Below, piece by piece: positions 54,079 through 57,734 of a stretch of 64,000 nt of DNA. Source of the DNA: Bugula neritina (taxonomy: Eukaryota; Animalia; Bryozoa); contig OZ037768.1 of the NCBI GenBank assembly GCA_964035545.1, positions 11,564,741 through 11,628,740 on the forward strand. The letters are read 5' to 3'. The position numbers and the translations under genes are program-made. Under the pieces are notes generated by a model. It saw only the letters and a list, made by a program, of their open reading frames with translations, was not told the origin of the DNA and did no database searches. Every line of letters starts with the position of its first letter. Position 1 is the stretch's first letter.

Positions 54079-57000
54079 ATGAACAGATCACAGAGTACTA
54101 GAAAAACATTGGTTGGCTTTGATTATGGAATCAAATGTATTGCATTGGGAGATTCAGGTAAGTCCGGAATATGTTTCATTTGTTTTGTTTTATTACTAAA
54201 CAACTCCTGAACCTTTTAACAAAGTGCATGTTAGTGTGTCAAATAGCAATTTCCTGAAAACTGCAATTAGGCTTTTGGCCAAATGAAATGGTGAAGAACA
54301 AACTACTTCTACACAAAAAGTTTCTAAGTCAATATTTTCATTAATTTAGTAGAGCAATAAAGGGCTGGTGTTCTTCTTGCTCAATCAAATTGAATGCAAT
54401 TAAAATTGTGTGCAGCCTTTTTGAACAAATGCTTGTAGCAAGAAAAATACTTGGCACAAATTAAAAGAAAATGTAAAACATATGATGGCTATACTGAAAA
54501 TTTCCTGGACTTACTACATAACCAAACACAACTGCTAATATTAGAACTAGCGTTACATGACTTTTGTAGCTTTTTTATTCTGTATAATAATCATTAATAA
54601 AACTGATAACATAATTGTTATACAATAAAATTATCTTCACAAGTTGTGTAGTTTTCACTTCATTCTATTACCCAGTTTACTAGTGTTGGAACTTATATAA
54701 AACCTGGTTCAGTTACTGTATACTGCATTATATTAGATTTGTATTATAAAGTAACATATACTTTAATGCAGCCACTTGTAATCTATTTCCTCTATTTCAA
54801 TACAGGTGTTGGTAAAACTTCTTTGCTACAAAAGATGGGAAACGCAAAACATGCAATGAAAACAACCCCAACTGTAGGTAAGTCATCAGCATATGACTTG
54901 TAGGTAAACTAGTTCCAACAGATATTATTTCAATATTTTAAATTAAATTAAAGCTGCCAAAGCAAAGAGTATGTCTATTTTTAGCACTCCATGTCTTGGG
55001 ATCACATGTAAACTCCTGAACACAATTTAATGTAGTCACATGATTTCAGTTAACATCATTGCTTTGGCATCTAGTGGTATAATTGATTTCAGAGCTGTTG
55101 TTGCTGACGGAATGAATGTATGTTTGAAGCAGATCTGGAATTCCTAGTTGTGATAATACAGTACAGCTAATGACTTTCATATAATTCTCAATTGTAGAGG
55201 GGATTTTTCATTCAAAAGCGCTGACAACCAGTGGGCGGAAGATACAGTTGTCTATTTGGGACACTGTAAGTAGAATATATAACTCAGTAATACCATGTGA
55301 TGTTGATTCATGTGCATATCACTGCTTTAAAAATTAATATTACAGTCACAGTTACATAGTCACTTGTGAGGTAGAAGCTATTCTCTATAAAAGCAAACTT
55401 ATGAATCTTGGATAAATTACAAACATAAAAAAACTTGCTTTTGGCATTCTCAATTCTTTAACAACTTCCCAGTGCTGTCAGTTTTCTCCTTATTAAGTCC
55501 CTCGTTGAAATACTTCAACTACAGTTTCTTCCGGTCTAGTAACACTAGCGGCTGGTAAACAATGGAGTAATCTAATGGTTATTTCTTTTCAGATTTAAAA
55601 TTTAAGTCCAGATAGTTCGAATTAGGTGAAGTAATGGAAAAATTGAAAAAAGTCTGTGTTCTAGATAAGAAATGTAGCAAAAGAAGTTATGTTCTCGCGA
55701 AAATTTCAACCCGCGCCCCTAATCAAAATCTATAAAGAAATTTAAGAAACTTAGGCTATCTCAATTTCTCCACTACCGCACCTAAATGCATAGTCCTAAT
55801 ATATGCACAAAGTTAGCAAAACTTTTTACTTGTTTAGTGACAATTAAACTACAATAACATAATTTTTCTACAGGCAGGTCAAGAAACATTCCGTTCCGTC
55901 ACGAGAATCTATTACAGAGGCGCTTCTTGTGCTCTTCTAGTTTATGACGTGACACGAAGGTCTTCTTTCAACAGTATCAGTGCATGGCTGGGAGACCTGA
56001 GAGATAACTCCTCAAATACAAAACCAGTACTGATTCTGGTAGCCAACAAATGGTAAAGCGTAATAATATAAAGATCTGATCTCATTGAGATGCTTTCTTG
56101 AAAACTCTGTCCGTTTTTGCCATCATTAATTTTAGAAAACTAGTGACATATTAAACACTGTGCATTGTATAAATTCAAAAGCAGCTGAGTAATTTATAAA
56201 CTACATATTTACTTGCATTAGCAAGCCCATTTCTCTATAAGGCTTGCTGTACACATAATTTAACAAAACATTAGCTCTGTTACTATTGGCTACAAAAACT
56301 TTTACTATAGATAAAACATTATATTGCTAAAACATGCAGCCTTTTTAATATATTTGTCCATTTTGTGATGGCAATATTATTTATAAAATGTGGATATAGT
56401 ACTTTCTATGATCATATGCTTATTACTAACTAGCTGTATTTATGTGGTATTGCATATGTTTATTACTAAATATAAAAGTAAATATTGCTTATCAGTAAAC
56501 TTAGAGATTAAATGTTGGTTCATTGCACAATATTATTGTATTACTTGTAGTGATTTATCCAAGGACAGGGAAGTGAGCTCTATGGAAGGAAATCTGTTTG
56601 CCAAACAGCATAACATGTCATACATCGAGACTTCAGCTGAAAAAGCATTGAACATTGAAAGGGTATTTGAGACCCTGGCAAAAGATGTCTACCACAATAT
56701 CAAAATAGGCAACATTGTCCCTAACTCAGAGGTAATGCATTCGTGTAAACAAAAGTGTTTACTACTATTACAATGTCAAGGAATAGGTTTGGGTTTAGAA
56801 AAGCTGTTCGTTGTTTATTATATTACATTGATTAACCCCCTCCTGAATTATTTACATTATATTGTGCATAAATAGATGATACAGTATACAGAAATGTATA
56901 CAGGTATCATCACCAACATACCTTAAGCATGTTATTACCTAGTCAGTTGCAATGATTAATTATTTATTACATGCTTAGTGCCATTTTCAAAGGGATATGA

Positions 57001-57734
57001 CTGTTAAATTATAATAATTCCCAGGCCAGTTATGAAAATTAATTTGACGTGGTTTAAAAAATTGCCCTGTTAGAAATATTTTTGTGAAAATCCTTTCTTA
57101 TAGCGATATGTTGCCTTTAACTATATGGTTATCTTTAAAGTAGAAACCATAAGCTTAAGGGAGCAGCAGTGGTTTAGGGCTTAGAGCGTTTAGTTTAGTA
57201 AACATGAAGTCATGGCTTCGAACCCCTGGTTAAAGCCATTGGTTATGTTAGGAAGAGCATTCAGTCATAATTTCTCCTGTGCCCCATCTGAATAAGTCCT
57301 TAGCCATAATAAACAAAAATACCCTTTCCATTATGGGTTTTCTCACAGGGATGGTAACTATAAACTTGCGTGAGTTTTTATAAGGAGGACCAAAATAAAA
57401 GTAAAAAGTTTTATCAGCTTCAACATGAATATTATACCGGGTTTAAAGTTTTTGGGTTACATTTTCATCTTTAAACTATGTGACTGAAATGTTTTCAATT
57501 CCATGGCTGTACTTCTAAAAAAATATCATTAACTAGATATTGTGCCTTTTGAGAAAAAGTCTGTACCAACAACAGCACTCCTAACAAGATTTCTTTACCA
57601 TTTGTATATAAATAAACTGGTTTTCTTACTGATTTGTTGATCAATTTCAGGTAAATGGTATCAAAGTTGGTCGTATGCCATCCAGTAGCTCTGAAGACGA
57701 CTTAAAAAAGAAGCGAACATCTTGTACATGTTAA
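54079..57734 (+). CDS. Divergent Rab2-like small GTPase (tandem duplicate), 220 aa
   Basis: Exons 54079-54157, 54806-54877, 55198-55265, 55874-56052, 56551-56731, 57651-57734. All five intron positions equal those of the neighbouring Rab2 (internal exons 72/68/179 vs 176/181). Motifs GDSGVGKT, WDTAGQE, YYRGA, ANKCD, ETSAE, NGIKVG, C-terminal CTC. Confidence 0.93.
55625..55782 (+). mobile_element. ~150-bp MITE family, copy 3
   Basis: ta|GGTGAAGTAATGGAAAAATTGA ... TCAATTTCTCCACTACCGCACC|ta. Confidence 0.75.
57161..57378 (+). mobile_element. tRNA-derived SINE, copy 3
   Basis: A-box TGGTTTAGGG, B-box GCTTCGAACCC, same body as copies 1 and 2. Confidence 0.85.

What the first reader, a model, noticed from the sequence alone, without database searches (positions are those of the whole stretch)
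54079..57734. Neofunctionalised Rab2 duplicate with a predicted fast-cycling nucleotide pocket and Ras-like switch I
Seen: an intact gene 4.4 kb downstream of Rab2 with the same five intron positions. G1, G3 (catalytic Gln), G4 and prenylation (CC changed to CTC, plus KKKR) are kept. Three changes stand out: the guanine-stacking Phe (Ras F28 equivalent) is His (54850-54852); G5 SAK is SAE (K147 equivalent, 56639-56641); and switch I HDLTIGVEF is TTPTVEGIF, losing the Rab-invariant Gly and resembling Ras PTIE. Established: F28 and K147 together clamp the guanine; F28L-type and K147E Ras variants and F28-substituted atypical Rhos exchange nucleotide rapidly; IGV(D/E)F is the main effector/GEF/GDI surface. 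Inference: a GEF-independent, largely GTP-loaded Rab with new effectors and, through the polybasic tail, a different membrane. The intact frame and splice sites despite deep divergence argue against a pseudogene.
Basis: partly seen in the sequence, partly recalled or inferred. Interest (0 to 1): 0.78.

Follow-up and report, generated by a model that had tools for sequence, protein, structure and literature searches.

The report
Bryozoan Rab with a rewired switch
An intact, divergent Rab gene sits just behind Rab2 in a bryozoan and has an ortholog in a second bryozoan that keeps the same rewritten switch region, so it is likely a lineage-specific trafficking GTPase, predicted but not shown to load GTP faster than normal Rabs.

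Summary
The gene is real: six exons, 220 aa, all five introns in the same place and phase as the Rab2 gene 4.4 kb upstream. It matches a Bugula neritina protein at 98%. An ortholog in Watersipora subatra (62%) keeps switch I residues 44-53 at 10 of 10, switch II at 19 of 20 and G5 SAE. That argues for selection on a new surface, not decay. The guanine-stacking Phe is lost in both, but His is not conserved (Watersipora has Arg). Faster intrinsic exchange is likely: Ypt7 F33A exchanges about tenfold faster, and kappaB-Ras1 has His at this site. GEF independence is not shown. Switch I is not Ras-like, because it keeps Rab length. The tail is only weakly basic. New here: the Rab1-D44 position is Ile in both species, predicting poor GDI extraction. 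Introns, tandem position and exon 6 point to a Rab2 parent; sequence trees do not, and lean weakly to Rab39. Expression could not be tested. Verdict: new variant of a known kind, moderate interest.

The parts
54079..54157 (+). Duplicate exon 1: ATG, 11-residue N-terminal extension relative to Rab2, start of P-loop
   Evidence: extension also present in the Watersipora protein
54806..54877 (+). Duplicate exon 2: P-loop end, alpha1, switch I up to V50; T49 (Ras T35) at 54871-54873
54850..54852 (+). H42, at the Ras F28 / Ypt7 F33 position (Arg in Watersipora, which has a one-residue insertion just before)
55198..55265 (+). Duplicate exon 3: rewritten RabF1 (E51, G52, I53, F54), beta2-beta3, W71; I53 (55203-55205) is the Rab1 D44 position
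55874..56052 (+). Duplicate exon 4: G3 with catalytic Q76 (55880-55882), switch II, alpha3, G4 NK; 3 nt longer than Rab2 exon 4
56551..56731 (+). Duplicate exon 5: G4 Asp, alpha4, G5, alpha5
56639..56641 (+). E163, at the Ras K147 position (G5 SAE); kept in P0001, P0002 and P0003
57651..57734 (+). Duplicate exon 6: Rab2-type NGIKVG segment with the aliphatic-X-aliphatic CIM (I197-K-V199, 57660-57668), KKKR (57705-57716), CXC (57723-57731), stop
58157..58214 (+). Two AATAAA hexamers downstream of the stop (possible polyadenylation signals; AT-rich DNA, weak evidence)
43207..49704 (+). Canonical Rab2 gene, six exons (43207-43252, 45202-45273, 45727-45794, 46328-46503, 48718-48898, 49606-49704), likely parent

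Best explanation
This is an intact Rab gene, conserved in two cheilostome bryozoans, that likely arose by tandem duplication of Rab2 and is predicted to exchange nucleotide faster than Rab2 and to be poorly extracted by GDI, so it would sit on membranes largely GTP-loaded and bind new effectors. Steps. (1) Shown: intact gene, Rab2-identical intron set, ortholog with the same new switch I, switch II and G5. (2) Inferred: REP and RabGGTase still prenylate it, since CIM and CXC are kept in both species. (3) Inferred from Ypt7 F33A and kappaB-Ras1: loss of the stacking aromatic, with Glu for Lys in G5, opens the guanine pocket and raises intrinsic exchange about tenfold or more; the catalytic Gln is kept, so a GAP could still switch it off. 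(4) Inferred from Rab1 D44N: Ile at the D44 position weakens GDI binding, so the protein stays where it is delivered. (5) Inferred: the rewritten, invariant switch I beside an intact F/Y-W-Y triad binds partners that Rab2 does not. My odds: functional 0.92, Rab2 parent 0.75, faster exchange 0.7, poor GDI binding 0.55, no GEF needed in cells 0.4.
For: Gene structure (chance about 7e-8 or less); Rab intron positions were subfamily-specific in the seven subfamilies tested in PMC3504004. Ortholog P0003, Watersipora subatra, 62%: switch I 10 of 10, switch II 19 of 20, G5 region 9 of 10 identical against 63% overall. Of 115 Rab2-conserved columns, 29 are changed yet identical in both orthologs. Long stem (1.6-3.0 changes per column) and shorter crown fit a burst then constraint. 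SAE also in a third record, P0002. In 224 Rab domains surveyed, 212 have F/Y/W at the F28 position, 219 have Gly at T+2, 217 have D/E at T+4 (none Ile), and 1 of 192 parsed G5 motifs has Glu. Ypt7 F33A exchanges about tenfold faster (PMC5216073). kappaB-Ras1 has His29 at the Phe28 site, low affinity and fast exchange (PMC12314375). Rab1 D44N loses GDI binding, is prenylated and mainly membrane-bound (PMC3295573). AlphaFold2: Rab fold, residues 41-50 mean pLDDT 51 against 80 for the matching block of a Rab2 control on the same rows.
Against: No kinetics, localisation or expression data. Trees do not place it in Rab2: outside Rab2/4/14 at 95/95, AU p 0.036 for duplicate plus all Rab2 and 0.060 for duplicate plus the window's Rab2; sister to Rab39 at 88/87 without distant outgroups, where AU p is 0.163 and 0.072. 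Ypt7 F33A is still stimulated by its GEF with near wild-type efficiency. G5 Lys is not essential in Rabs (Leu in 21 of 192). K-Ras K147E lowered SOS-stimulated exchange and impaired G12V transformation in bioRxiv 324210. C. elegans RAB-39 has Met at the F28 position (supplement of PMC3504004), so loss of the aromatic also occurs in a conserved Rab. Basic residues at 41-42 could pair with E163 and close the pocket. Low pLDDT may only reflect that 2 of 90 alignment rows carry the new motif. The Rab survey is biased to Rab2-like hits.
Confidence: 0.48

Rival explanations
1. A neofunctionalised Rab2 paralog with a compensated pocket: a basic residue at 41-42 pairs with E163 (charge swap) or the conserved M44 covers the base, so exchange stays slow and it needs its own GEF like an ordinary Rab.
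For: Both orthologs pair E163 with basic residues in the F28 region (K41-H42; K-R) and keep M44. G5 Lys is replaceable in Rabs. C. elegans RAB-39 has Met at F28. G1, T49, Q76 and NKCD are all canonical.
Against: Residues 32-43 are poorly conserved (5 of 12) and differ by an insertion, which suggests released constraint rather than a new clamp. F33A and His-for-Phe precedents are fast.
Confidence: 0.24
2. It belongs to the Rab39 lineage (itself an old Rab2 duplicate) or to its stem, rather than being a bryozoan-specific copy of Rab2.
For: Sister to Rab39 at 88/87; not rejected (p 0.18); about 10 lnL units. Shared states: P48, V50, H55, M155, I188, and a one-residue insertion in the alpha3-beta5 loop seen in only 19 of 318 scored rows (these include three copies of the duplicate). 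Rab39 is a metazoan Rab2 duplicate (PMC3425129).
Against: All five Rab39 rows have R, T, N and W where the duplicate has the Rab2 or generic K19, G27, G89 and N195. Diagnostic sites favour Rab2 14 to 8, 15 neither (four Rab39 rows). Mouse Rab39b has a single intron at nt 215 (PMC9071400), mapping to R80, where the duplicate has none. One column supplies 6.2 of the 10 lnL units. Long branches.
Confidence: 0.14
3. A low-affinity, often nucleotide-free decoy that dampens Rab2 by holding its GEF or other regulators.
For: Two pocket changes together could lower affinity strongly; switch II stays close to Rab2; K147E behaved as loss of function in one assay set; tandem position could allow co-expression.
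Against: Switch I, which GEFs grip (PMC5216073), is entirely rewritten and invariant; the Mg-binding Thr, catalytic Gln and G4 are kept, which fits a working cycle.
Confidence: 0.08
4. A decaying pseudogene or assembly artefact.
For: 42% identity to Rab2; four residue differences from P0001.
Against: Open frame and canonical splice sites while fourfold sites are near saturation (13 of 35 identical) and no intron aligns to Rab2; full-length ortholog with motif-centred conservation; even depth in a public run.
Confidence: 0.03

Closest known systems
Rab2 (RAB2A/B, Drosophila Rab2; PDB 1z0a, 4rke, 2a5j)
   Same: Top three sequence matches in the PDB; same five introns; YYRGA, TRR and NGIKVG segments; CIM.
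   Different: Switch I and RabF1 rewritten, F28 lost, G5 SAE, CXC for CC, N-terminal extension, 42% identity.
kappaB-Ras1/2 (PMC12314375)
   Same: His in place of the guanine-stacking Phe; described as fast-exchanging and constantly active. Best functional analogue.
   Different: Ras family, no catalytic Gln, no membrane anchor; its His29 is nine residues before the switch Thr, here seven.
Fast-cycling atypical Rho GTPases RhoU/V/D/F (PMC9029563)
   Same: Intact hydrolysis residues with (predicted here) raised intrinsic exchange.
   Different: Rho family; RhoU/V have Tyr and RhoD/F keep Phe at position 28, so their change is milder; that review calls the mechanism unclear.
Ypt7 F33A and Rab1 D44N laboratory mutants (PMC5216073, PMC3295573)
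   Same: Same two positions altered; phenotypes are faster exchange and loss of GDI binding.
   Different: Single engineered changes; here natural, combined and conserved, with different residues.
Rab39
   Same: Earlier Rab2 offshoot; several shared residues and a loop insertion.
   Different: Keeps G-V-D-F RabF1; has its own signature residues; one intron in mouse.
C. elegans F11A5.3/F11A5.4 Rab2-like paralogs (PMC3504004)
   Same: Lineage-specific divergent members of the Rab2/4/14 group.
   Different: They keep the F28 Phe and G-V/I-E-F.

Membership tests
Rab family | Ras-superfamily G domain with G1-G5 | tested here: met
   Pfam Ras E 6e-50; Rab fold, pLDDT 86.8, top Foldseek hits all Rabs; G5 Lys replaced
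Rab family | Combined RabF1-F5 identity at or above the 48% of RAB-28 (PMC3504004) | tested here: met
   18 of 27 (67%) and 15 of 27 (56%); consensus motifs recalled from Pereira-Leal and Seabra 2000, not from a call
Rab family | RabF1 motif itself (IGVDF-like) | tested here: not met
   VEGIF / VEGIY: 1 of 5 and 0 of 5
Rab family | C-terminal double Cys plus CIM | tested here: met
   CTC and CGC; I-K-V and I-R-V
Rab family | REP-dependent prenylation and GDI cycling | not testable with these tools
   D44 position is Ile; needs biochemistry
Rab2 subfamily (descent) | Shared intron positions with Rab2 | tested here: met
   5 of 5; invertebrate Rab4, Rab14 and Rab39 intron maps not available
Rab2 subfamily (descent) | Monophyly with Rab2 in protein trees | tested here: inconclusive
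   Not recovered; AU p 0.036 and 0.060, 0.163 and 0.072; very long stem
Rab2 subfamily (function) | Rab2 effector loop (HDLTIGVEF) | tested here: not met
   so not filed as a functional Rab2
Rab39 subfamily | Signature residues R, T, N, W shared by all five Rab39 rows, and the Rab39b intron | tested here: not met
Ras family (switch I type) | One-residue deletion at the RabF1 Gly (T-to-D spacing 22) | tested here: not met
   spacing 23 in both orthologs (criterion from PMC3504004)
Fast-cycling GTPases | High intrinsic exchange with intact hydrolysis | not testable with these tools
   Sequence prediction only

The most novel reading that the evidence does not exclude
Cheilostome bryozoans evolved a natural self-loading, GDI-escaping Rab: both guanine-clamp residues and the GDI-contact acid were replaced, and a new switch I has been held invariant across a deep split. 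It would be a membrane-resident, expression-controlled Rab that bypasses the GEF/GDI cycle, a Rab counterpart of kappaB-Ras and RhoU, marking a bryozoan-specific trafficking route.
Probability: 0.3. Interest if true: 0.65.

Novelty: new variant of a known kind. Interest (0 to 1): 0.42.

Why it matters
Lineage-specific divergent Rab paralogs and fast-exchanging small GTPases are both known. The combination here is rare among the Rabs surveyed, is conserved between two species and sits beside its likely parent. That makes a clean natural pair for testing which residues set intrinsic exchange and GDI dependence in a Rab, and how a new switch surface arises after duplication. It is annotated only as 'RAB2A' or 'Rab-2A-like' in the databases; one full-text search (bryozoa + Rab2) found no paper.

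Tried and rejected
Expression: no RNA holder listed; this is no evidence either way. Own genome not held, so a separate bryozoan Rab39 and wider synteny could not be checked. More orthologs: none beyond P0001, P0002, P0003 among the listed hits (top 120-150 only), judged by motifs and BLAST over 388 fetched proteins; two metagenome scans confirmed 0 of 266 and 0 of 291 pattern matches. ESM Atlas gave generic Rab clusters only. Earlier findings: nothing. Ras-like switch I rejected on spacing. Polybasic retargeting judged weak. A Rab2/Rab39 exon mosaic was tested by per-exon site likelihoods and showed no clear block pattern. No third Rab gene in the window. The primary K147E biochemistry paper (Cirstea 2013) is not held; its fast-exchange result is recalled only. 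dN/dS not computed: no ortholog DNA. Complex prediction not used: no bryozoan GDI, REP or effector was on hand. Tree rows dropped: P0169 (no P-loop found), and after the long, mislabelled, badly trimmed or redundant rows (46 rows cut to 25 and 24); subfamily labels were set by motif and confirmed by database names for only some rows.

Full report
Observation. Splicing six exons (54079-57734) gives an open 220-aa Rab with GT-AG introns in phases 1,1,0,2,0. The Rab2 gene ending 4,374 nt upstream has the same phases at the same aligned codons, and exons 2, 3 and 5 have equal lengths. Identity to Rab2 is 88 of 208. Fourfold sites match at 13 of 35 and only one 78-nt exon 4 stretch aligns at DNA level, so the duplication is old. 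One public run, possibly the source, shows even depth over both genes and no coding difference among the rows shown.

Identity and orthologs. The protein is 98% identical to Bugula neritina KAF6017913.1, named RAB2A (four differences outside the motifs). Watersipora subatra XP_067934233.1 is a full-length ortholog at 62%. An unnamed record, P0002, carries an exon 5 ortholog with SAE. No other ortholog appeared among the listed hits or in two metagenome scans. Deep cheilostome splits C to G are dated Triassic to Jurassic and Bugulidae lie in clade C (PMC8967238, passages); that Watersipora falls in a different clade is my recollection.

Selection. Between the two species, residues 44-53 are identical at 10 of 10, 71-90 at 19 of 20, 155-164 at 9 of 10 and 181-201 at 16 of 21, against 63% overall; 32-43 match at 5 of 12 and the tail at 7 of 19. 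Of 115 columns conserved in 13 Rab2 rows, 58 are kept, 29 are changed but identical in both orthologs (including T47, P48, V50, E51, G52, I53, H55 and I85) and 28 differ. That is the pattern of a new constrained surface. No dN/dS or expression data could be obtained.

Nucleotide pocket. The F28 position is His in Bugula and Arg in Watersipora, so the conserved trait is loss of the aromatic, not His. Among 224 surveyed Rab domains 212 have F, Y or W there, and 1 of 192 parsed G5 motifs has Glu (32 not parsed; set biased to Rab2-like hits). Ypt7 F33A exchanges about tenfold faster but is still stimulated by its GEF (PMC5216073, passages). kappaB-Ras1 has His at this site, an open pocket and fast exchange (PMC12314375, passages and one section). 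Against: Leu is natural in G5 (21 of 192); C. elegans RAB-39 has Met at F28 (supplement rows); K-Ras K147E lowered SOS-stimulated exchange and transformation (bioRxiv 324210, passages and one section; its figures and supplements were not visible, so the intrinsic rate is unknown to me). Fast exchange by K147E is recalled from Cirstea 2013, which is not held; PMC7989852 (passages) confirms only that it is a CFC-syndrome allele. Fast-cycling RhoU/V have Tyr and RhoD/F Phe at 28 (PMC9029563 and PMC13236570, passages). AlphaFold2 gives a confident Rab fold with residues 41-50 at mean pLDDT 51, against 80 for a Rab2 control on the same 90 rows; this may reflect thin alignment support.

Switch I. 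It is not Ras-like in the defining sense: Thr-to-DxxG spacing is 23 in both orthologs and Rab2, and 22 in two Ras domains; the Ras/Rho hallmark is a deletion at this Gly (PMC3504004, sections 3 and 7). PTV also occurs in Rab39. More telling is I53 at the Rab1 D44 position, which is D or E in 217 of 224 domains and never Ile. Rab1 D44N loses GDI binding yet is prenylated and mostly membrane-bound (PMC3295573, passages). CIM and CXC are conserved, so prenylation is probably kept. The aromatic triad (F/Y54, W71, Y86; role recalled) is intact. The tail is only weakly basic.

Origin. For Rab2: tandem position, 5 of 5 introns (about 7e-8 by chance or less; intron positions were subfamily-specific in seven other Rab subfamilies, PMC3504004), the exon 6 NGIKVG segment, best PDB hits and diagnostic sites (14:8 against Rab39, 13:4 Rab14, 16:6 Rab4, 10:3 Rab11). 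Against: trees put it on a long stem outside Rab2 or sister to Rab39 at 88/87; AU p for Rab2 placements runs from 0.036 to 0.163; it shares several residues and a loop insertion with Rab39. It lacks four Rab39 signature residues and the single Rab39b intron (PMC9071400, passage). Rab39 is itself a Rab2 duplicate (PMC3425129, passages). I put the Rab2 parent at about 0.75.

Verdict. A real, selected, bryozoan-restricted Rab paralog with a rewired switch I. The most likely mechanism is a loosened pocket plus weak GDI binding, giving a membrane-resident, largely GTP-loaded Rab with new effectors (0.48 for the whole chain). Divergent Rab paralogs and fast-exchanging GTPases are known kinds; this combination is unusual and easy to test. 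One search for bryozoa with Rab2 found no paper. Interest 0.42.

Noticed in passing
window 41062-42617, minus strand: Ribosomal protein L27e gene (Pfam PF01777 on one exon), head-to-head with Rab2, start codons about 590 nt apart; possible shared promoter.
   Followed up: partly
window about 38200-40811, plus strand: Spc25 kinetochore gene (Pfam PF08234 on the last exon), tail-to-tail with L27e.
   Followed up: partly
window 52646-52809 and 55623-55786: Two 80%-identical copies of a 164-nt high-copy dispersed repeat, one between the genes and one in intron 3 of the duplicate.
   Followed up: no
window about 57150-57380: Another very high-copy short interspersed repeat in intron 5 of the duplicate (depth spike); tRNA-like look is my impression, untested.
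   Followed up: no
window 46662-46888: 45-nt tandem repeat in Rab2 intron 4.
   Followed up: no
P0003 residues 39-48 and P0001 residues 36-43: One-residue length difference just before the F28 position between the two orthologs, in otherwise indel-poor sequence.
   Followed up: partly
P0068: An unrelated plant Rab2-like record also has G5 SAE and an altered RabF1, a possible independent case.
   Followed up: no
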